41,584 nucleotides of DNA. It comes from a virus. Lineage: Duplodnaviria > Caudoviricetes. Positions within the stretch are counted from its first letter, which is position 1, and each line of letters opens with the position of its first letter. The notes below the pieces were generated by a model. The model was not told the DNA's origin. It saw nothing but the letters and a program-made list of their open reading frames with translations, and searched no databases. A program made the translations under genes and the position numbers. Positions 4,451 to 19,548 of the stretch are shown in pieces. The DNA lies in the IMG/VR virus record IMGVR_UViG_3300033407_000048, positions 1 to 41,584 of that record; one strand, given 5' to 3'.

Positions 4451-4706
4451 GGGGGGGAGCTTCACGATTCGGCTTCGCCTTACTAGGCGGACCGCACTCA
4501 AGCTCCTCCCGCTTCTCGCGCCCATCCTGTTCGATGCCGCACAGGACTATCATCTGCGAGGAGAACGGATCGCACGCCTCGAGCGCATCGTCGCCGAGAA
4601 TCAACTTGTTGACAGCGGGGCGATGGGACCCCCGCAACCACTTGGAGAGAAAGATCGAACGATGATTCGGAAATTGTTAGAGAACGTCGCGAGGTTAATC
4701 CCATGA
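4431..4706 (+). CDS. Hypothetical lysis-cassette protein
   Basis: Fills gap; stop overlaps endolysin ATG (ATGA). Confidence 0.5.
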   Translation: MGTGSTEGGSFTIRLRLTRRTALKLLPLLAPILFDAAQDYHLRGERIARLERIVAENQLVDSGAMGPPQPLGEKDRTMIRKLLENVARLIP

Positions 4707-5227
4707 CGACGTGGAGGAGATTCAGATTGCCGTCCATCAACATCTTCAGGGAGACGTCGACCACATCGGCATTGCCGTTCATTCCATCGACTGCGTTCTC
4801 GATCGCGGAGCGCTTCGTAGGAGTGCGCGAGGTTCCAGGGACGAAACACCACCCGCTGATTCTCGCGATGCTTCAACTCGACGATTCGTGGCCGGTGGCG
4901 GATGAAGTGCCGTGGTGTTCGGCGTTCGTCAATTTCATCGCGTGGCTGATCCGACTCCCGCGCTCGAAGTCGTTGACCGCGCGTTCGTGGCTGACCGTCG
5001 GCAAAAGCATCGGCCTCGCAGACGCTCGCGTGGGATTCGACGTCGTGATCCTGCGCAACATGGCCGGAGCGCCTGGTCCCGAGGTGCTCGATGCACCCGG
5101 GCATGTCGGCCTCTACGCGGGGCAGGAGGGCGGTGGCATCATGGTGCTTGGAGGCAACCAATCTGATTCCGTTTCCGTCGCACGCTTCGCGAGTGATAGA
5201 CTGATCGGGATTCGGAGGCTGATCTGA
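4703..5227 (+). CDS. Endolysin, TIGR02594 family (NlpC/P60/CHAP-like peptidase)
   Basis: DEVPWCSAFVN, ARSWL..G, GHVGLY, VLGGNQSDSV motifs. Confidence 0.88.
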   Translation: MTTWRRFRLPSINIFRETSTTSALPFIPSTAFSIAERFVGVREVPGTKHHPLILAMLQLDDSWPVADEVPWCSAFVNFIAWLIRLPRSKSLTARSWLTVGKSIGLADARVGFDVVILRNMAGAPGPEVLDAPGHVGLYAGQEGGGIMVLGGNQSDSVSVARFASDRLIGIRRLI

Positions 5228-5252
5228 ACTCGATCGAAAGGAGAAACGTCCC

Positions 5253-5561
5253 ATGAGTCTCATCGGAACGCTTAAGAAAATCGCCGGAGTCTTCAACATC
5301 CTCGCCCCGTTCATCTCGATCTGGAGCGGCGGCAAGGTCAACGTCGCGGATGCCGCGGTCCCCATCGGTGAACGCCTCGAGGCCGTGAAGATCGTCCTCA
5401 AGGAGGCGCAGGAGTTCGTCGCGGCGCTCGAGGCTGCGATCGCTCCGGACTCCGACGGCATCGTCCGGATCACCGAAGCGGAGCTGGACCGGATCATCGA
5501 CGAGGCGGCCGATTTCCCGGCTGCGATCGCTGCGCTCCGTGGGGTCAGCGGGACGGGTTGA
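5253..5561 (+). CDS. Hypothetical lysis-associated protein
   Basis: AAAGGAG RBS; amphipathic N-terminus; follows endolysin. Confidence 0.6.
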   Translation: MSLIGTLKKIAGVFNILAPFISIWSGGKVNVADAAVPIGERLEAVKIVLKEAQEFVAALEAAIAPDSDGIVRITEAELDRIIDEAADFPAAIAALRGVSGTG

Positions 5562-5596
5562 TGATCTCCCGGGCCCGATCAGGGTAGAGGCGCAGG

Positions 5597-5632
5597 GGGG
5601 GGCCTTTCGAGGAGGTCCCCTCTTCCTTTCCC
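5597..5632 (+). terminator. Probable intrinsic terminator of late/lysis operon
   Basis: GGGGGCCTTT-CGA-GGAGGTCCCC hairpin followed by TCTTCCTTT. Confidence 0.5.
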
Positions 5633-5634
5633 GG

Positions 5635-5663
5635 TTGACAGCCGGGCGGCCTGCCGGTACGAT
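5635..5663 (+). promoter_or_regulatory. sigma70-type promoter of candidate sRNA
   Basis: TTGACA (5635-5640), 17 bp, TACGAT (5658-5663). Confidence 0.75.
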
Positions 5664-5668
5664 GCCCG

Positions 5669-5744
5669 CAGTCGACTCCCATCGACTCTTCCACCCGCCC
5701 GGCCGAGAGGCCCCCGGACAGCCCGCCCGGGGGCTCTCTCTTTG
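5669..5744 (+). ncRNA. Candidate ~75-nt small RNA with C-rich loop
   Basis: Between consensus promoter and terminator hairpin; AGTCGA-CTCCCA-TCGACT stem-loop; no RBS/ORF. Confidence 0.6.
5705..5744 (+). terminator. Intrinsic terminator hairpin
   Basis: GAGAG-GCCCCCGG...CCGGGGGC-TCTCTC then TTTG. Confidence 0.65.
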
Positions 5745-5751
5745 CCCGAAA

Positions 5752-5788
5752 ATAAACCCTTGACAGCGCAAACGGTTTATCCTAGATT
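5752..5788 (+). promoter_or_regulatory. Early promoter 1 with operator AACCCT-N11-ACGGTT over -35
   Basis: TTGACA 5760-5765, 17 bp, TAGATT 5783-5788; inverted repeat 5755-5760/5772-5777. Confidence 0.75.
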
Positions 5789-5848
5789 GGACGAGATCGA
5801 CGAAGAGAAGGAGGGGGACATGCCGGGCCAGGCTGGAAAGGAGTCTCC

Positions 5849-6022
5849 ATGACGAAGGAAGATCTGCTCATGCGAGCGAAGAAACTCGAGGCGTACTTCC
5901 GAATCCTTCGGCTCAAGCGACGTCACGATCCACCGCTTGCGACGCGGAAGGAGTACGACCGCGTGCGAAAGAATCTCGTCGGAGCGCGGCGCGCTGCGAA
6001 GGGATGGGAGGAGAAGCGATGA
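5849..6022 (+). CDS. Small basic hypothetical early protein (57 aa)
   Basis: AAAGGAG RBS; MTKEDLLMRAKK...; stop overlaps next ATG; too short for ORF track. Confidence 0.6.
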   Translation: MTKEDLLMRAKKLEAYFRILRLKRRHDPPLATRKEYDRVRKNLVGARRAAKGWEEKR

Positions 6023-6195: not shown

Positions 6196-6455
6196 GACAG
6201 GCGCAATACTCCATCATCGAGGACGACTACTTGCAGAAGAAGCCGCTAATCATCCGCGACGTTGGGCCTTGGGACCTGCATCCGACTGTGACCAATGCGG
6301 CTGAGGAAGTGGTTGCCGGTCTCGTGCGTCGTGGGCTCCTGCCCCCTGGCCGGCGATTACTGTACTACGACTCCGACGGGACGCTTGACGAGATCGTGGT
6401 CGAGGACGGAGCGTTCGCAGGTTTCCGTCCTGGCCCGCGCGAGGCGACGCCATGA
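6192..6455 (+). CDS. Conserved small phage protein (TVTNAAE...YYDSDG motif)
   Basis: GTGA coupling, RBS; recognisable motif of a widespread uncharacterised family. Confidence 0.65.
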   Translation: MRQAQYSIIEDDYLQKKPLIIRDVGPWDLHPTVTNAAEEVVAGLVRRGLLPPGRRLLYYDSDGTLDEIVVEDGAFAGFRPGPREATP

Positions 6456-7348
6456 ACCGAGGTGCGATCTACATGCCGCCCTACGGCAAGCTCAACGAAG
6501 CAGAGAAGGACGCGGCGGCGCAGTTTCCGCTTGCCCTCGTCGGCTGGCATCGCATCGAGGACTTGCGGGAGATGAAGCAGCGCGCACCGGATCAGGTGCG
6601 CCTCAAGCTCGCACTCCCCGACATCTGTGCGCCGCCGGATCATCCGCGCTTCAAGGACCTCACCGAAGCCGACCTGGAGTGGAATCTCGACGCCGCCTAT
6701 TCCTCGGCGCTGCAGGAGAAGGGGCTCCAGACGGCCCGCGTAGGCTGGCCAGGCTGGAATCTGCCGAAGATGGGCAAGGCGACGGCGCAGGCGTTCTGTC
6801 GCACCCACCGCGCGTTCCTGCGCAAGTACGGGCCTCTCGGGGAGGGTCTCGTGGACGGGTCGCACTTCGAGAACTTCGTCGTGGACCCGCGCTCGATGTT
6901 CGGCACGTTCACGGATGACGAGTGCGCGGAGTGGGAGATCGCATGGGAACATATCACCACGGCGTTTGCCCGGATGCGACAGAACGGCGTGATCTCGCGA
7001 CTCACGGCGCAACGGGTGTCACGGTGGACGTGCCGTGATACAGAGATCGCGATGTTCCACGGCGCGTTGGGCGGAATCAAGCTGGAAGCAAACCCGCGTC
7101 TCCGAGATTTCACCTTGGCGGAGTGGTGGAACCATCACGACCTCCGCGGCCCGAGGTGCTACATCGACGCGGGCGTCGACATGGCGCAGTCCTTCTTCGA
7201 GGCGTGGCTCGATCCGTCTCACACGCCCGAAGCGCAAGAGGCGTGGAGGACGCGGATCTTCCGCAAGGCGCGATCCGTCGGCGCGCTGGCGATGACGGCG
7301 CACAGAGATGAGCGGTTCCACCGCGAAATACCGGAGGCGATGGAATGA
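6452..7348 (+). CDS. Hypothetical protein, possible glycoside-hydrolase-like TIM barrel
   Basis: 298 aa, ATGA-coupled; LVDGSHFEN and GGIKLE resemble GH barrel strands; function is a guess. Confidence 0.55.
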   Translation: MNRGAIYMPPYGKLNEAEKDAAAQFPLALVGWHRIEDLREMKQRAPDQVRLKLALPDICAPPDHPRFKDLTEADLEWNLDAAYSSALQEKGLQTARVGWPGWNLPKMGKATAQAFCRTHRAFLRKYGPLGEGLVDGSHFENFVVDPRSMFGTFTDDECAEWEIAWEHITTAFARMRQNGVISRLTAQRVSRWTCRDTEIAMFHGALGGIKLEANPRLRDFTLAEWWNHHDLRGPRCYIDAGVDMAQSFFEAWLDPSHTPEAQEAWRTRIFRKARSVGALAMTAHRDERFHREIPEAME

Positions 7349-7542
7349 ACGACACTTGCATCTGTACATGGGAGCTATCATGTGCCGGAACAAGAATCTT
7401 GCGGTGCGAAGGCTGTGGCGGTGATCTCTGCGTCTGCGCCGCTTGTCCAAACAGCGGCGAGATAGCCTGTCCAGGCTGCGAGGATTGCTGCGAGCCGGAG
7501 CCAAGTGGGGCGGGTGAAGACGAACCGGACGCGATGGAATGA
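7345..7542 (+). CDS. Cys-rich small zinc-binding protein
   Basis: Multiple CxC/CxxC motifs; coupled. Confidence 0.6.
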   Translation: MNDTCICTWELSCAGTRILRCEGCGGDLCVCAACPNSGEIACPGCEDCCEPEPSGAGEDEPDAME

Positions 7543-8255
7543 GCTATCGTGTGCAGATTGAAGTGAAAGTCTACCATCTTGATGGCACACTGTGGGCCGC
7601 GGCCGATTCTCTCAATGCGCTCCGGCCGCTTCTCGACCGCGTCAAGCTGGGCGACCGCGTCAAGCTGGGCGACGGGGTCAAGCTGGGCAACTGGGTCAAG
7701 CTGGGCGACCGCGTCAAGCTGGGCGAGGGGGTCACGCTGGGCGACGGGGTCAAGCTGGGCGACGGGGTCAAGCTGGGCGACCGCGTCACGCTGGGCGACC
7801 GCGTCACGCTGGGCGACGGGGTCACGCTGGGCGACGGGGTCAAGCTGGGCGACGGGGTCAAGCTGGGCGACGGGGTCACGCTGGGCAACCGCGTCACGTC
7901 GACCCGACTCAACGAGGACGCTTGCACAGCGTATGCCGCGCTCGGCCCCGTACACCGTTTCACAAAATGGGTCACAGCGAGTCGCATGAGCCCGAACTTC
8001 GACGGCGGAACGCGGATCTCGTATCCCGTCGGCGAGAAGATCCGCACCGAATCCGCGGTGAGATCAGATCAGCAATGCGCGGAGGGGCTGCACGTCCTGG
8101 AGTACGGCCACAGACCCGAGTGGCATGGACTATGCGAGGCGGATCACAACTACATCCCGATCGACGTGGAGGTCAAGAGCGAGGACATTCTATTCGCCGG
8201 CGTGGCGTCGATGCGCGGCAAGATCCGCGTGCGTGCGCTCAAGGTGCTAACGTGA
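7539..8255 (+). CDS. Hexapeptide-repeat (left-handed beta-helix) protein with C-terminal CAEGLH domain
   Basis: 14 x V(K/T)LG(D/N/E)(R/G/W); CAEGLH and GKIRV motifs. Confidence 0.75.
   Translation: MSYRVQIEVKVYHLDGTLWAAADSLNALRPLLDRVKLGDRVKLGDGVKLGNWVKLGDRVKLGEGVTLGDGVKLGDGVKLGDRVTLGDRVTLGDGVTLGDGVKLGDGVKLGDGVTLGNRVTSTRLNEDACTAYAALGPVHRFTKWVTASRMSPNFDGGTRISYPVGEKIRTESAVRSDQQCAEGLHVLEYGHRPEWHGLCEADHNYIPIDVEVKSEDILFAGVASMRGKIRVRALKVLT
7641..7892 (+). repeat. 18-bp tandem coding repeat, 14 copies
   Basis: gtca(a/c)gctgggcgac(cgc/ggg) units. Confidence 0.92.
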
Positions 8256-9275: not shown

Positions 9276-9557
9276 ATGAAGCGCGAATTGCTGCACAACA
9301 AGTGTAACTGGAAGGTGCAACCGGTAACTCTTGACACAGACCCCGTCGCACTTGCGGAGGTCTTTGTGTTTGGCGAAGACGTCACGCGCGTTTATGGCAC
9401 GGCCCGCGGCTCGTACATGTGCGACAACTGCGGCGAAGGGATCGAGATGGGCGAGCCGGTCATTGCCCTGTCGGTTTCAACGACAGCGGCGCCCTACTTC
9501 AAATGGGAGGACGACTACGTGGAGGTCGCGGAGGAGCCGAAGAATGAAGCTACCTAG
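9276..9557 (+). CDS. Hypothetical protein with CxxC
   Basis: GGAGG RBS; YMCDNCG. Confidence 0.55.
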   Translation: MKRELLHNKCNWKVQPVTLDTDPVALAEVFVFGEDVTRVYGTARGSYMCDNCGEGIEMGEPVIALSVSTTAAPYFKWEDDYVEVAEEPKNEAT

Positions 9558-9645
9558 CGTCCGCAGCCTGATCTACATCGCAATCGCGAGCATCGTGATT
9601 CCATTCGCCATGGCTTGGCTCCTCGACGCCTGCGGGATGTGGTGA
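9544..9645 (+). CDS. Small single-TM protein
   Basis: GGAGGAG RBS; MKLPSVRSLIYIAIASIVIPFAMAWLL. Confidence 0.45.
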   Translation: MKLPSVRSLIYIAIASIVIPFAMAWLLDACGMW

Positions 9646-9646
9646 G

Positions 9647-9759
9647 ATGAAGCCGTACTACGACCACGGCGGTTGCGGCACGGCGTCGATGGCCAAGAAG
9701 TCATCGACCTGCCAACTGCAACGCCGATTCAGCACGTCCAAGGAGAGATCCTCGAATGA
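9647..9759 (+). pseudogene. Internally deleted DNA methyltransferase remnant
   Basis: MKPYYDHGG start typical of phage adenine/N4C MTases, joined out of frame to RLRHGVDGQ...QGEILE* whose stop overlaps the next ATG. Confidence 0.5.
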
Positions 9760-10091
9760 GCCTTCTGGAAGCTGATTTCCAGCGTCAAGTCATGGCGCTT
9801 CTGCGCGCTTCGCCGCGCGTCGTGTGGGCTCGGCGCCTGAACAGCGGGAAGATCAAGAGTCGTCGCGGAGGATGGGTCAAGCTCGGAGACACAGGCGATC
9901 CCGACATCGTGGGAATGCTCGACGGCGGCCGATTCTTCGCGATCGAGCTGAAGCGCGCCGACGCGCCGCAGAGCGACCACGCGGAGCGACGCGAGAAACA
10001 AAGGGAAGTGCTGAGAACGATCGGCGCAGGACACGGTCTCGTCGTCTTCGCGTCGACCATCGAGGAGATTCAGAAAGGGCTCGGGATATGA
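9756..10091 (+). CDS. VRR-NUC domain nuclease (Holliday junction resolvase-like)
   Basis: EADFQ, GDPDIVG, FFAIELK, Q motifs. Confidence 0.85.
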   Translation: MSLLEADFQRQVMALLRASPRVVWARRLNSGKIKSRRGGWVKLGDTGDPDIVGMLDGGRFFAIELKRADAPQSDHAERREKQREVLRTIGAGHGLVVFASTIEEIQKGLGI

Positions 10092-10287: not shown

Positions 10288-10535
10288 TCCGGTCCGGCAT
10301 GCTCCACACCTTCGGGCTCGCCGACGTCATCTACGACGGGCGCCGGAGCGATCCTCAGCCGCGAGTCCCACGGCTGCGCCTCTGCCCGGGCTACGAGTCG
10401 ATCATCGATGCGGAGTCGATTACTGGCGCGAGGGTCATGGCGTCATGCCCGGTCTGCCGGCGGCGCGTCGCCGGGGCCTTCTGGGCCGGGGAGTTCCGGA
10501 TCGGTAGGCATCCGCGCCACAGGAGGAGCCACTAA
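10284..10535 (+). CDS. Small hypothetical metal-binding protein
   Basis: GTGA overlap; CPG...CPVC...H motif; start uncertain. Confidence 0.4.
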   Translation: MIRSGMLHTFGLADVIYDGRRSDPQPRVPRLRLCPGYESIIDAESITGARVMASCPVCRRRVAGAFWAGEFRIGRHPRHRRSH

Positions 10536-10580
10536 CTCTATATCCCATGCGACCTTAGAAGAAATCTTCTCCCTGCCAAA

Positions 10581-10617
10581 ATAAACCGTTGACATCGTGG
10601 ACGGTTCGCCCGATACT
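10581..10617 (+). promoter_or_regulatory. Early promoter 2 with operator AACCGT-N11-ACGGTT
   Basis: TTGACA 10589-10594, 17 bp, GATACT 10612-10617; perfect inverted repeat 10584-10589/10601-10606. Confidence 0.75.
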
Positions 10618-10657
10618 TGGCCTAGGTAGAGGAGAAGGCCATGAACCGCAATCAATC

Positions 10658-10729
10658 GACAGCGAAGCCCGGCAGCCGTACCCCAAGGAGACTGGCCTCT
10701 CCAGCGGCGCGCCGGGCTTCCTGTCTTTC
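10658..10729 (+). ncRNA. Structured leader RNA / possible attenuator
   Basis: GACAG-GAAGCCCGGC-GCCG pairs with CGGC-GCCGGGCTTC-CTGTC; inner CTGG/CCAG hairpin. Confidence 0.5.
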
Positions 10730-10745
10730 CACAAGGGAGAGTGTG

Positions 10746-11213
10746 ATGGGATACGACGAATCGAAAGCCAGAGAGCCGCAGCACGTCGGCGATGACCGCT
10801 GCCCGGAGTGCGGAGGTGACCCAACCGGGACTCCGTGCTGCGATTCCGAGGCGGCACGCCAGAGCCAATCGTCCGCTCGGACATCGACTCAGGCCGCGAT
10901 CGCGGTGGGACGAGCGATCCTCAATCTTCAGGTCGTGGCGGACGGCATGACGAGCATCCATCGAGATCACCGCGGCGATCTCGCGGCAGACGTCCGCGCT
11001 ATCCTGCAATCCGGACTCGATCCGGTGGCCTACCGCCGCGCTCTTGCTGCGGCGCGGGGTGTCGATGTCAGTGAGGTCGATGCCGTCATCGCGGCCGTGG
11101 GCGGGACTCCTCGCCAGGTCTCGGCCGAGACGGTCGCCCAGGAGCGGCTGGCTGAGGAGCGTCGGCACGACGCCGCGTGGAGAGTCCACGACGGAGAGGA
11201 GGAGACGGCATGA
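10746..11213 (+). CDS. Hypothetical protein (CPECGG motif)
   Basis: AGGGAG RBS before ATG 10746; alternative in-frame start 10641. Confidence 0.6.
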   Translation: MGYDESKAREPQHVGDDRCPECGGDPTGTPCCDSEAARQSQSSARTSTQAAIAVGRAILNLQVVADGMTSIHRDHRGDLAADVRAILQSGLDPVAYRRALAAARGVDVSEVDAVIAAVGGTPRQVSAETVAQERLAEERRHDAAWRVHDGEEETA

Positions 11214-12669: not shown

Positions 12670-13183
12670 CCTACCTCGTGTCACGATCGATCAGGTCATG
12701 TCCTGGCAGCCGTGTATCTCACGCGATGAGGTCGCCGTTTACTTCCGCGGCCGCGTCGATCTCGACGCGCGGGAGATCCTCGCGCTTCATGCACCCGTGG
12801 AATACCGCCTATGGGCCGTACTGCGGCCCGAGATGATCCCGGAGTCGATGCTGTGGGCACTCGCCTGCGACTACGCAGAGCACGTGCTACACATCTACGA
12901 GGCTGCGTATCCGGGCGACGAGCGGCCTCGGGATGCTATCGCGATGAGGAGGGCATGGCTGCGCGGCGAGGCGGATGATGTGGCTCTGGCCGCAGCCTGG
13001 TCCGCAGCCAGGGCCGCAGCCGACGCAGCCGGGGGCGCAGCCTGGGACGCAGCCGACGCAGCCGGGGGCGCAGCCTGGGACGCAGCCTGGGCAGCCAGGG
13101 ACGCAGCCGACGCAGCCGGGGGCGCAGAATCTCTATGGCAGATCGAGCACACGCTAGCTGAACTCGACAAGATCGGAGGATGA
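12662..13183 (+). CDS. Imm5-like protein with Ala-rich AAW(D/A)AA repeats
   Basis: LACDYAEHVLHIYE..YPGDERPRDAI motif, then gcagcc-based repeats around 12990-13126. Confidence 0.7.
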   Translation: MSSLPRVTIDQVMSWQPCISRDEVAVYFRGRVDLDAREILALHAPVEYRLWAVLRPEMIPESMLWALACDYAEHVLHIYEAAYPGDERPRDAIAMRRAWLRGEADDVALAAAWSAARAAADAAGGAAWDAADAAGGAAWDAAWAARDAADAAGGAESLWQIEHTLAELDKIGG

Positions 13184-15032: not shown

Positions 15033-15169
15033 TCCGATCGATGCTCTATTTCCTCGCCCGTATGATCGGCGACGTGAACGCCGTCCGTCGAGGCCGCGTC
15101 GGGCGCCGACTCGCGCGCAGAGCGGCGGGGAAGCTGACTGGCCGGGCGCTCTGGAGAATGTTCCGATGA
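15029..15169 (+). CDS. Small Arg-rich protein (LARMIGDVNAV family)
   Basis: GTGA coupling, AAGGAG RBS. Confidence 0.6.
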   Translation: MIRSMLYFLARMIGDVNAVRRGRVGRRLARRAAGKLTGRALWRMFR

Positions 15170-15205
15170 AAACCCTTGACAGGTTCAACGGTTCGCGCTT
15201 ACGAT
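15168..15205 (+). promoter_or_regulatory. Early promoter 3 with operator AACCCT-N11-ACGGTT
   Basis: TTGACA 15176-15181, 18 bp, TACGAT 15200-15205; inverted repeat 15171-15176/15188-15193. Confidence 0.72.
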
Positions 15206-15231
15206 ACGCCCTCAAAGGAGGGAATACCGCC

Positions 15232-15495
15232 ATGTTGACATCTCTCGAGTCCAGCGTCCTCGACGCCGTCCACAAACTCGGGCCGCGCCAGGCTAGCGGC
15301 CACGCCGTCCAGCGCGCGCTCGGCCGGCGAAACGCTGTCTATCAAGTCCTCCATCAGCTCGTCAGCAAGGGGCTCGTGACCTGCGACTGGAAGGATCCGC
15401 AGCATACGCGAGGCGGTCAGGGGAAGGTGCGTCTGTACCGCATAACGCCGCGTGGTCGAGCGGTCATGCGCGTCGCGAAGGAGGTCGCGACTTGA
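15232..15495 (+). CDS. PadR-like winged-helix transcriptional regulator
   Basis: AAAGGAGG RBS; SGHAV..VYQVLHQLVSKGLV..W..RLYRITPRGR matches PadR pattern. Confidence 0.78.
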   Translation: MLTSLESSVLDAVHKLGPRQASGHAVQRALGRRNAVYQVLHQLVSKGLVTCDWKDPQHTRGGQGKVRLYRITPRGRAVMRVAKEVAT

Positions 15496-15731
15496 AAACG
15501 GAACGTGTTGATTTCGCAGTCGGCGATCTCGTGCGTCATCGAGCGAGCGGGCAGGTAGGCGTCATCACGGTTGTGTTCGAGAAATGCGTTAATCCAGAGC
15601 ATCCGGTTATCGGCATGATCTTTCATCCTGTTGGATGTGTGATCGAACCGACCGGTTACTACAACGTTTCAGTCGGTTTCAACGATAGCAGCCATGAAGT
15701 TCCGCTCGTCCTGTTGGAACATGTGGAATAA
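15492..15731 (+). CDS. Small SH3-like protein
   Basis: TTGA coupling, AAGGAGGT RBS; FAVGDLVRHR..GQVGVI. Confidence 0.6.
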   Translation: MKTERVDFAVGDLVRHRASGQVGVITVVFEKCVNPEHPVIGMIFHPVGCVIEPTGYYNVSVGFNDSSHEVPLVLLEHVE

Positions 15732-15747
15732 AAAGGAGGAGGAGTCA

Positions 15748-16680
15748 ATGGGAGAAAAGAAAACAGCCGACATGCCCTTAGTGTCGGAAGGGCCTCACGC
15801 CCTCTACCGCCGCGACACCGAGACCGGTTTCGCGCGAATCAATCCGCAAGATCTCATCCAACAGGCCATCGAGGCCGGGTCGGGAATCGAAACGCTCGAA
15901 CGACTCGTCGACCTGGCCATACGGGTCAGAGAGCAGGATGCAAAGGAGGCGTGGTACGCCGCCATGGCAGAGTTCCAGCGCACCTGCCCGCCGATCCCGA
16001 AGACGCGCACAGCCGATGTACCGACGAAGAGCGGCGGGAGATTTTCCTACACCTACGCGCCGCTCGACGAGATCCTTAGCGTCGTACAGCCGATCATGGG
16101 CGCGCTCGGGCTGTCGATCCAGTGGGGCTTGAAGTACCAGCCGAACGTCGTGATCGCCAACTGTCGGATCCTTCACCGGCTCGGGCACTCGGAAGAGTCC
16201 GGGGAGCTTGGGATCCCCGTCGACATGTCGAGCGGAATCGGAGCGAATGCGGCTCAGCGGGTCGGCATCGCGACGACCTACGCGAAGCGCTACGCGCTGC
16301 GCGCTGCGCTCGGAATCGAACCCGAAGGCGATCCGGACGCTCAAGGCACAGATCGTCCGGCACCCGCAGAGCCGCGGCGCAAGTCCGGCGCGACCGACGC
16401 TCCGAAGCAGTCCGCACCGCTGCGCGTCGAAGTGCTCGACTACCAGAAGAGCACGGGGACGAAGAAGACCGGCGAAACATGGACGCTCCACACGCTGACC
16501 TTCAGGACAGAAGACGGCAAACAGTTCCAGGCCGGGACGTTCTCGAGCAGCGTCGCGAAGTCGCTCATGGCGTACAAGACCGAAGGCCAGCTCCCGTGCG
16601 TCGTCTTCGCGCGGACCGACAAGGGGATCAACATCGAGACGATCGTGGAGGAGGATTCGCAGGAGGAAACGATCCAGTGA
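15748..16680 (+). CDS. erf: ERF-family single-strand annealing protein
   Basis: YTYAPLDEI, HRLGHSE, QRVG.ATTYAKRY, D.DA motifs; strong RBS. Confidence 0.88.
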   Translation: MGEKKTADMPLVSEGPHALYRRDTETGFARINPQDLIQQAIEAGSGIETLERLVDLAIRVREQDAKEAWYAAMAEFQRTCPPIPKTRTADVPTKSGGRFSYTYAPLDEILSVVQPIMGALGLSIQWGLKYQPNVVIANCRILHRLGHSEESGELGIPVDMSSGIGANAAQRVGIATTYAKRYALRAALGIEPEGDPDAQGTDRPAPAEPRRKSGATDAPKQSAPLRVEVLDYQKSTGTKKTGETWTLHTLTFRTEDGKQFQAGTFSSSVAKSLMAYKTEGQLPCVVFARTDKGINIETIVEEDSQEETIQ

Positions 16681-17222
16681 CCGACGCCGTACCGTCTGCA
16701 ACGCGCCTGCTCCGTGACATCGGAATCACGGACATTTCCCACGTTCCGGAGTGGGCGCTCGAACGCGGGAGGCATGTCCACAGGGCGCTCGAGTTCTTCG
16801 ATCAGGGCGATCTCGATGAGGATTCGGTCGTCGAGGAGTTCCGCGGCTACGTCGAGTCGTGGAAGCGGTTCAGAACCGCTCACGATCCCGAAATCGTCCG
16901 CGTCGAACATCGGTTCGAGTCGCCGCTGTGGCGTGTCTCGGCACGCCCCGACGTCGTGTGCCGCATGCAGGGCGCTCTGTGGGTGATCGAGCGCAAGGTC
17001 GGCGGCCCCGCGCCGTGGCACGCGCTACAGACGGCAATACAACGTCTCGCGATGGAAGGCATCCAAGACGTCGAAGTTCCAACGCGACGCGGTGCCGTCT
17101 ATCTCGAGGACGACAATCAGGGCAAGCTACGCGAGCACACGAACCCGAGAGATCGGGACGTTGTGCTCGCGCTGCTAACCGTATGGAGGTGGAAACATGG
17201 GAATGGAGTTGATCAGAGTTGA
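16677..17222 (+). CDS. Second PD-(D/E)XK-fold nuclease-like protein
   Basis: PSATRLL, RGRHVH, VEHR, RPD, IERK, LQTA; GTGA coupling. Confidence 0.7.
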   Translation: MTDAVPSATRLLRDIGITDISHVPEWALERGRHVHRALEFFDQGDLDEDSVVEEFRGYVESWKRFRTAHDPEIVRVEHRFESPLWRVSARPDVVCRMQGALWVIERKVGGPAPWHALQTAIQRLAMEGIQDVEVPTRRGAVYLEDDNQGKLREHTNPRDRDVVLALLTVWRWKHGNGVDQS

Positions 17223-19350: not shown

Positions 19351-19380
19351 TTGACACGGGAGGTCTGCGCGTGGTAGTCT
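19351..19380 (+). promoter_or_regulatory. Promoter of replication operon
   Basis: TTGACA 19351-19356, 18 bp, TG-G-TAGTCT extended -10; CGCAGA/TCTGCG inverted repeat flanks the -35. Confidence 0.65.
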
Positions 19381-19386
19381 GCAAGG

Positions 19387-19545
19387 AGATCGAGTAGCAC
19401 CGATCAGAGATCCAGCATTGAAAAACAGGTTGAGCGGCGGCCCGGTCCTACAGTTGCCCCGCGCCGGTGGAATGCGCGCCGGGGCGCGATCGGTGCTACA
19501 GCCGGGTCGCCGCCTCATACCCTTTCTCCTAGGAAGAGGAGCCTG
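19387..19545 (+). ncRNA. Structured leader RNA resembling P4 CI / P1 C4 antisense architecture
   Basis: Double stem-loop 19431-19517; its 3' bulge 19488-19499 is the exact complement of 19394-19405. Confidence 0.55.
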
Positions 19546-19548
19546 CCG

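What the first reader, a model, noticed from the sequence alone, without database searches (positions are those of the whole stretch)
5635..5744. Self-contained sRNA gene antisense to the ERF ribosome-binding site
Seen: TTGACA-17-TACGAT promoter, ~75-nt unit, own terminator hairpin and a 5' stem-loop displaying CUCCCA. The reverse complement of 5676-5692 (GGAAGAGTCGATGGGAG) matches 15738-15754 (GGAGGAGTCAATGGGAG, SD plus AUG of ERF) at 15/17, with one G:U and one mismatch. Weaker matches lie at the starts or RBSs of 10746, 17197, 19549 and 6019; several early genes begin ATG-GG. This promoter lacks the early operator. Inference: a trans-acting sRNA lets the PadR-like gene be expressed while silencing downstream recombination/replication genes.
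Basis: partly seen in the sequence, partly recalled or inferred. Interest (0 to 1): 0.78.

Follow-up and report, generated by a model that had tools for sequence, protein, structure and literature searches.

The report
Phage sRNA pairing early start codons
An uncultured soil phage has a protein-free promoter–hairpin–terminator unit whose front half is complementary to the ribosome-landing sites of two of its own distant early genes, so it likely makes a small RNA that would switch those genes off, though no transcript or effect has been seen.

Summary
In a complete ~41.5 kb orphan phage genome, 5635-5744 is a sigma70-type promoter, a ~76-nt ORF-free unit with a CUCCCA-loop hairpin, and a terminator-like stem (fold z -3.6). 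It lacks the operator of the three early promoters. Bases 5676-5692 pair with the ERF start (15 Watson-Crick, one G:U, one mismatch), the best match in the genome. That match alone is not rare: 10 of 76 unrelated loci score as well. A second start, 10746 (first gene of the second early operon), pairs as strongly (-20.2 versus -21.3 kcal/mol; next -10.0 of 64). Only 0-1 of 826 foreign starts and 4 of 790 shuffles reach that. The loop reads AUG-GGA, the start codon and codon 2, not the Shine-Dalgarno site. 17197 and 5849 are weak targets; 6019 and 19549 are background, so silencing of 'replication genes' is unsupported. No relative for covariation was found, and expression is untested. Best reading (0.55): a trans-acting antisense RNA that works like P1 c4 but is not a family member. 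The scan has noted such RNAs before in other phages (8 notes seen, unchecked).

The parts
5582..5632 (+). Hairpin after the putative holin gene, likely the late-operon terminator that separates the unit from lysis-gene transcripts
   Evidence: fold of 5580-5634, -31.7 kcal/mol; position after ORF 5253-5561
5635..5663 (+). Promoter P0, TTGACA-17-TACGAT, without the early operator
5669..5744 (+). Predicted small RNA, about 75 nt (start probably A5670, inferred from the spacing after the -10 box), with no open reading frame
   Evidence: sequence; fold z -3.61; no Rfam family
5670..5687 (+). 5' hairpin with loop CUCCCA (5676-5681), complementary to AUG-GGA-G start regions
5671..5695 (+). Pairing segment (loop, 3' stem strand and single-stranded UCUUCC) used for both strong targets
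   Evidence: duplexes
5705..5744 (+). Terminator-like stem with a short U tail
15735..15754 (+). Predicted target 1: Shine-Dalgarno site, AUG and codon 2 of the ERF gene
   Evidence: 15 WC + 1 G:U; -21.3 kcal/mol, first of 64 starts; rank 2 of 1795 genome sites
10735..10757 (+). Predicted target 2: Shine-Dalgarno site, AUG and codons 2-4 of the first gene of early operon P2
   Evidence: 18 WC + 2 G:U, one bulge, two mismatches; -20.2, second of 64; rank 5 of 1795; start supported by homolog P0106
17185..17222 (+). Weaker predicted target: start of gene 17197 (ATG-GGA; phrog_10477 exonuclease-like)
   Evidence: -10.0 to -18.5 depending on context
5822..5845 (+). Weaker predicted target: leader and Shine-Dalgarno site of gene 5849, first gene of early operon P1 after a 10-codon ORF
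   Evidence: third-best gapped match of 65; -4.9 to -15.6 depending on context
5755..5788 (+). Early promoter P1 with inverted-repeat operator
10584..10617 (+). Early promoter P2 with operator
15171..15205 (+). Early promoter P3 with operator, upstream of the PadR-like gene and ERF
15232..15495 (+). PadR-like winged-helix gene, presumed operator-binding repressor (binding inferred); its start is not predicted to pair with the RNA
   Evidence: PF03551 E 5.6e-07
15748..16680 (+). ERF single-strand annealing protein gene
   Evidence: PF04404, phrog_155
10746..11213 (+). Unknown 155-aa gene with a Cys-rich N-terminus, first gene of operon P2
   Evidence: no family hit; homologs P0106 and P0107

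Best explanation
The unit is likely the gene of a ~75-nt trans-acting antisense RNA, made from an operator-free sigma70-type promoter, that is predicted to block translation of the phage's own ERF gene and of the first gene of early operon P2. Proposed steps: the exposed loop CUCCCA first pairs with AUG-GGA on the mRNA. The hairpin then opens at a cost of about 6-7 kcal/mol. Its 3' strand and the following UCUUCC zip onto the Shine-Dalgarno site and would shut out the 30S subunit. Because P0 lacks the operator of P1-P3, the RNA would keep accumulating while the PadR-like protein (presumed) closes P1-P3, giving a delayed second shut-off of early translation that spares the PadR-like gene. Shown: promoter consensus, fold, absence of an ORF and of the operator, complementarity and its rank against controls. 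Inferred: transcription, ends, pairing in vivo, repression, timing, and the PadR-operator link.
For: Only 5 sigma70-like promoters occur in the genome; the other 4 lead into genes, while this one leads into a 76-nt ORF-free unit closed by a stem. Two of 64 gene starts stand 10 kcal/mol clear of the rest. The same RNA reaches -20 or better on 0 of 826 starts from 105 unrelated GC-matched viral loci with a narrow window and on 1 of 826 with a wide one; Fisher p 0.005 and 0.015. A second-best site as good as the real one occurs in 4 of 790 dinucleotide shuffles, 1 of 242 other intergenic windows (a minus-strand copy of an RBS, on a strand with no promoter hit) and 1 of 554 random windows. The three best gapped matches fall one in each operator-bearing operon. 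ATG-GGR starts: 4 of 35 automatically called starts against 22 of 826 in background (binomial p 0.014), while Gly at position 2 occurs in only 4 of 99 ERF homologs. Strains X6 and X7 vary in the promoter spacer, the terminator loop, P1 and the upstream spacer, but not in the pairing segment.
Against: The single ERF match is not rare: 10 of 76 unrelated ERF loci hold an equal or better ungapped antisense score to their own ERF start, and 25 of 790 shuffles match some start as well. Genome-wide, a site inside gene 6452-7348 (6926-6948) ranks first, and three of the top five sites are not gene starts. Energies shift with context: 10746 -17 to -20, 17197 -10 to -18.5, 5849 -5 to -16. The gapped-score enrichment is borderline (3 of 65 against 7 of 629, p 0.058). 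The closest homolog of 10746 begins M-P-G, so it lacks ATG-GGA. The strain data are few, low-depth changes and cannot show constraint. The U tail is weak. No covariation could be tested.
Confidence: 0.55

Rival explanations
1. The RNA is made, but it is a generic anti-Shine-Dalgarno/anti-AUG RNA, or it aims mainly at host mRNAs or a host RNA-binding protein; the phage matches are by-products of its C/U-rich sequence.
For: The segment is C/U-rich and carries both CUUCC and CAU. One of 12 foreign ATG-GGA starts reaches -19.4. The host is unknown, so host targets were not examined.
Against: The real RNA's third-best own start is weaker than in 735 of 790 shuffles, and strong-SD late genes score near zero. 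The profile is selective, not generic.
Confidence: 0.17
2. The unit acts in cis as an attenuated leader or insulator between the lysis genes and early operon P1, somewhat like the P4 PLE/CI region; read-through feeds P1 and any pairing is local (5822-5845).
For: The U tail is weak and P1 lies 16 nt downstream. The linker can pair with the P1 leader (cofold gain -15.3). On a read-through RNA, 5641-5649 pairs with 5695-5703.
Against: It does not explain the two distant sites that lead the ranking. P1 has its own full promoter, so it needs no upstream leader.
Confidence: 0.13
3. The stems are DNA or terminator elements and the promoter is weak or relic; the complementarity is chance, found by looking at many places.
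For: Equal ungapped scores arise in 10 of 76 unrelated loci. A coding site ranks first genome-wide. The tests were chosen after seeing the match.
Against: P0 scores 10/12, as well as P1-P3. The fold has z -3.61. The two-target pattern is rare in three separate nulls.
Confidence: 0.15

Closest known systems
c4 antisense RNA of phages P1 and P7 (immI); PMC12197685 section 7 read, PMC8198154 passages read
   Same: A short phage RNA that blocks translation of a phage mRNA by imperfect pairing around the ribosome binding site, with the pairing sequence probably exposed in loops.
   Different: c4 lies in the same operon as its target (c4-icd-ant), in temperate phages, and its target is an antirepressor. 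Here the RNA has its own promoter and stem terminator, its predicted targets lie 5 and 10 kb away in separate operons (ERF and an unknown gene), no integrase or CI-type repressor was detected, and there is no Rfam hit.
CI RNA of satellite phage P4 (PMC4825925 passage read)
   Same: A small RNA at the head of an early transcription unit that pairs with sequences of the phage's own transcript.
   Different: CI is processed from the leader and causes premature termination through seqA and seqC that flank it. Here the best sites are distant translation starts.
sar of P22, OOP and aQ of lambda (PMC12197685 section 2 read)
   Same: Phage antisense RNAs that repress the phage's own genes; sar acts on translation initiation.
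   Different: These are encoded on the opposite strand of their targets (recalled for sar and OOP; aQ is described as acting in cis). This unit is on the coding strand and far from its targets.
Start-associated sequences (SAS) of cluster K mycobacteriophages (PMC3203893 passages read)
   Same: A private signature at the starts of non-structural genes; the authors left open binding by an RNA or a protein and noted single inverted copies.
   Different: SAS is a 13-bp repeat upstream of many genes. Here there is no shared repeat, only two strong and two weak sites, and the common core lies in the reading frame (AUG-GGA).
Unpublished candidates of this scan (8 notes seen, e.g. e1-9718025, e1-6320508, e1-9791401; AI notes, unchecked)
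   Same: Stand-alone phage sRNA genes complementary to the starts of the phage's own early genes; one is also placed between lysis and early genes.
   Different: No sequence similarity was found. The notes describe shared RBS motifs of 3-15 genes, some with covariation; this case has two strong targets and no covariation.

Membership tests
c4 antisense RNA (P1/P7; Rfam C4 families) | Match to the covariance model | tested here: not met
   No Rfam hit at gathering score in the genome; only 2 chance hits at E 3-4.5, neither C4, in 5560-5860
c4 antisense RNA (P1/P7; Rfam C4 families) | Encoded in one operon with its target icd-ant antirepressor genes | tested here: not met
   No antirepressor hit among the ORFs scanned; best targets lie 5 and 10 kb away under other promoters
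c4 antisense RNA (P1/P7; Rfam C4 families) | Loop-exposed complementarity to the ribosome binding region of a phage mRNA | tested here: met
   Predicted only: loop 5676-5681 unpaired; duplexes at 15748 and 10746
P4 CI RNA | Complementary sites upstream and downstream of the RNA in its own leader that cause termination | tested here: inconclusive
   5641-5649 and 5822-5828 are complementary to the linker, but 5641-5649 lies inside the promoter and the energies are modest; no Rfam hit
cis-encoded antisense RNA (sar, OOP, aQ) | Encoded on the opposite strand of the target gene | tested here: not met
   The unit is intergenic on the + strand; the targets are distant
trans-encoded base-pairing sRNA | Own promoter and terminator, no ORF | tested here: met
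   (consensus and fold only; weak U tail)
trans-encoded base-pairing sRNA | Discrete transcript that represses its target by pairing | not testable with these tools
   Needs RNA data and a reporter assay
trans-encoded base-pairing sRNA | Seed and target conserved or covarying in relatives | tested here: inconclusive
   No relatives found beyond near-identical strains
SAS of cluster K mycobacteriophages | A repeated 13-bp motif before many gene starts | tested here: not met
   No 7-mer of the RNA's complement is shared by more than 3 of 64 leaders; no such repeat among the 20 largest repeat families shown
tRNA/tmRNA | ARAGORN or Rfam hit | tested here: not met

The most novel reading that the evidence does not exclude
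An integrase-less phage runs a two-arm early switch. A PadR-like protein closes three operator-bearing promoters, and one stand-alone RNA closes a gate gene in each of those three operons (5849, 10746, ERF). The RNA reads its address partly inside the reading frame: targeted early genes carry a purine-ending glycine codon at position 2 so that AUG-GG(A/G) docks the RNA loop.
Probability: 0.25. Interest if true: 0.75.

Novelty: new variant of a known kind. Interest (0 to 1): 0.45.

Why it matters
How phages that rely on host RNA polymerase turn early genes off is poorly mapped, and the self-targeting phage RNAs in the papers read here are immunity elements of temperate phages, encoded beside or opposite their target. 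A stand-alone RNA acting on several distant early operons, with its seed on the start codon and codon 2, would add a compact post-transcriptional timer and explain an odd second-codon bias. It is easy to test in a reporter strain. Because the scan has noted better-supported cases in other phages, this one matters mainly as a further, sequence-unrelated instance with a different seed geometry.

Tried and rejected
Relatives. The seed 15-mer in viral contigs gave 42 loci, none with similar flanks and none with a blastn hit to the window. The ERF, capsid and gene-10746 queries found no locus in viral contigs. The endolysin query gave 68 loci; by tblastn they share at most one further gene with the window. 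The ERF alignment gave 80 of 126 loci, of which 76 had a start called; among the 16 closest with a start, the best antisense score was 12, and none of the contexts printed showed a promoter-terminator unit; these loci cover only up to 10 kb on each side. The operator pattern gave 1 viral, 54 metagenome and 27 genome loci; apart from 3 loci of the window's own record, none had homology. The ERF alignment found nothing in genome contigs. The nearest capsid protein is 35% identical, cultured phages are at about 27%, and blastn of the unit found nothing.

Expression. No RNA holder was listed; this is no evidence either way. X2 has 4 differences in 10418-11124 whose positions were not shown.

Raw duplex energy without accessibility was uninformative: ERF was not in the top 40 windows. 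The 6943 site (SD plus ATG-GGA, 31 codons, out of frame) was rejected as a gene start because homolog P0120 covers gene 6452-7348 across it. 10641 was rejected as the main start of the P2 gene because homolog P0106 begins at the 10746 position. tRNA/tmRNA and Rfam families were rejected. No integrase, partition protein or CI-type repressor was hit in the ORF scans, which does not prove a lytic lifestyle.

Literature. Eight searches listed no paper on a stand-alone phage sRNA repressing several of its own early genes; the library lacks most subscription papers, and no supplements were read.

Full report
Setting. The window is one contig with a 129-nt terminal repeat, so it is a complete circular phage genome of about 41.5 kb and 61% G+C. 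The runs that hold it are soil and sediment metagenomes; X2 (sediment) and X3 (soil) were laid and carry the unit unchanged. All recognised genes lie on the + strand: lysis genes end at 5561, early and recombination genes run from 5849 to about 20990, and head and tail genes follow. No integrase, partition protein or CI-type repressor was hit in four family scans. The phage is an orphan: its nearest capsid protein is 35% identical, and cultured phages reach about 27%.

The observation. TTGACA-17-TACGAT stands at 5635-5663. Only five sigma70-like sites score 9/12 or more, all on the + strand: 5635, 5760, 10589, 15176 and 19351. Three of them carry the inverted repeat AACC[C/G]T-N11-ACGGTT; 5635 and 19351 do not. 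The four others lead into genes. 5635 leads into 76 nt with no reading frame, folding as a 6-bp hairpin with a CUCCCA loop, a single-stranded linker and a long stem with a short U tail (z -3.61, 0 of 200 shuffles). A separate hairpin closes the lysis genes upstream. There is no Rfam, tRNA or tmRNA hit. Bases 5676-5692 pair with 15738-15754, the Shine-Dalgarno site and start of ERF (PF04404), by 15 Watson-Crick pairs, one G:U and one mismatch; the next best site has 13. The loop pairs with +2..+7 of the reading frame, not with the Shine-Dalgarno site.

Is it more than chance? The ERF match alone is not decisive. In 76 of 80 unrelated ERF loci where a start could be called, 10 hold an equal or better ungapped antisense score to their own ERF start, and 25 of 790 shuffles of the 5' domain match some start of this phage as well. 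The case rests on a second site. With hybrid energy plus the cost of opening both RNAs (my own script, not IntaRNA), 15748 gives -21.3 and 10746 gives -20.2 kcal/mol; the third of 64 starts gives -10.0; 6019 gives -4.5, and 19549 and the PadR-like start give none. 10746 is a real start: homolog P0106 (88% over 65 residues) begins at the same place.

Controls. The same RNA reaches -20 on 0 of 826 starts called in 105 unrelated GC-matched viral loci and on 1 of 826 with a wider window; Fisher p 0.005 and 0.015, or 0.045 at a -19 cut-off. Some of those loci had been fetched by the seed 15-mer, which favours the background. A second-best site as good as the real one occurs in 4 of 790 shuffles, while 735 of 790 shuffles have a better third site, so the real RNA is selective. 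Among 242 other intergenic windows 1, and among 554 random windows 1, has a second site as good; both are on the minus strand. Among 108 automatically called SD starts, ERF ranks first in both contexts tried and 10746 second or third.

Results against. Genome-wide, ERF ranks 2, 10746 ranks 5 and 17197 ranks 9 of 1795 sites, but first place goes to 6926-6948, inside a gene whose homolog spans it. Energies for 17197 and 5849 move by 8-11 kcal/mol with context. A gapped alignment puts 15748, 10746 and 5849 on top, one in each operator-bearing operon, but the enrichment is borderline (3 of 65 against 7 of 629 after dropping the seed-fetched loci; p 0.058). ATG-GGR begins 4 of 35 automatically called starts against 22 of 826 (p 0.014, ERF included), and ERF homologs have Gly at position 2 in only 4 of 99 cases; yet P0106 begins M-P-G.

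Relatives. None suitable was found (see Tried and rejected). Near-identical strains add little. X2 is identical over 4600-5788 and 15562-16139. X7 has a rearranged spacer after the holin stop, one extra G in the P0 spacer and one base missing in the terminator loop; X6 and X7 share a change at 5766; neither changes the pairing segment where it is covered. These contigs have depth under 5, and three changes in 160 nt cannot show constraint. The strain variant P0113 of gene 17197 keeps the M-G start.

Mechanism. Most likely (0.55) P0 makes a stable RNA whose loop docks on AUG-GGA, after which the opened stem and UCUUCC cover the Shine-Dalgarno site and block initiation at ERF and 10746, perhaps weakly at 17197 and 5849. 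P0 is outside operator control, so the RNA would build up while the PadR-like protein, presumed to bind the operators, closes P1-P3: a delayed second shut-off of early translation, which in a carrier state would also act as immunity. Sequence features and ranks are shown; transcription, pairing, repression, timing and the PadR-operator link are inferred. Rivals are a generic or host-directed RNA (0.17), chance (0.15) and a cis leader (0.13).

Comparison. It works like c4 of P1/P7, which blocks translation by loop-exposed pairing around the ant ribosome binding site (PMC12197685: parts 1-2 of 6, section 7 and passages read; PMC8198154: passages read). It fails c4 membership on the covariance model and on operon context. 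P4 CI acts by termination through flanking sites (PMC4825925: passage read). Cluster K SAS motifs are start signatures with an unknown reader (PMC3203893: passages read; lead taken from earlier notes of the scan). Eight literature searches (listings and abstract starts only) showed no stand-alone phage sRNA repressing several of its own early genes. The scan's own notes hold 60 findings with the search words, of which 8 were shown, all describing such RNAs in other phages; none resembles this sequence and none was on this genome. They are unchecked and are not counted as support.

Verdict. A real, self-contained candidate sRNA gene with a moderately significant two-target signature, no covariation and no expression data. 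New variant of a known kind; interest 0.45. The boldest reading, an RNA that closes one gate gene in each early operon through an address in codon 2, has probability about 0.25.

Noticed in passing
window 5755-5777, 10584-10606, 15171-15193: Inverted repeat AACC[C/G]T-N11-ACGGTT wrapped round the -35 box of three early promoters, exact at only these three places; one lies just upstream of a PadR-like gene, which suggests an autoregulated repressor-operator system in a phage with no integrase hit.
   Followed up: partly
window 5641, 5822, 10711, 15141 and 5697: GCCGGGC lies 27, 35 and 25 nt before starts 5849, 10746 and 15166, and in the P0 spacer (4 of 7 plus-strand copies); its complement is in the RNA's single-stranded linker. 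It lies in this zone in 2 of 64 listed own starts against 3 of 826 foreign ones. Possibly a second pairing site; noticed after the fact.
   Followed up: partly
window 10657-10723: Long branched hairpin in the leader of operon P2, between a strong-SD ATG at 10641 and the homolog-supported start at 10746, in the same frame; possible attenuator or dual start (z -1.53 for 10624-10780).
   Followed up: partly
window 5820-5852: Ten-codon ORF with a strong SD whose stop overlaps the start of 5849; possible translational-coupling leader of operon P1.
   Followed up: no
window 19351-19548: Fifth sigma70-like promoter, without the operator, followed by a ~160-nt highly structured leader before gene 19549 (ATG-GGG; 304 aa, no family hit).
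   Followed up: no
window 15166-15495: The PadR-like ORF has a second in-frame ATG at 15166, overlapping the stop of the upstream ORF and upstream of P3, so a longer form could be made from read-through transcripts.
   Followed up: no
window 7539-8255 and 12970-13143: Hexapeptide-repeat gene with an 18-nt tandem array (PF00132), and an Imm5-like gene with 9-21-nt repeats.
   Followed up: no
window 9561-10039: Strain X2 differs at many positions here (31 listed rows) around an endonuclease-like gene but is identical over 4600-5788: a mosaic segment.
   Followed up: no
L052 13221 (+): In an unrelated phage with a similar endolysin, a TTGACA-17-TAAGAT promoter is followed by a GC-rich, structured-looking stretch; possibly another small RNA.
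   Followed up: no
L170, promoter match at 9330-9381 (+): Promoter followed by CTCCCAT and a strong terminator about 80 nt later in an unrelated phage; similar anatomy, but best self-match only 13 of 17.
   Followed up: partly
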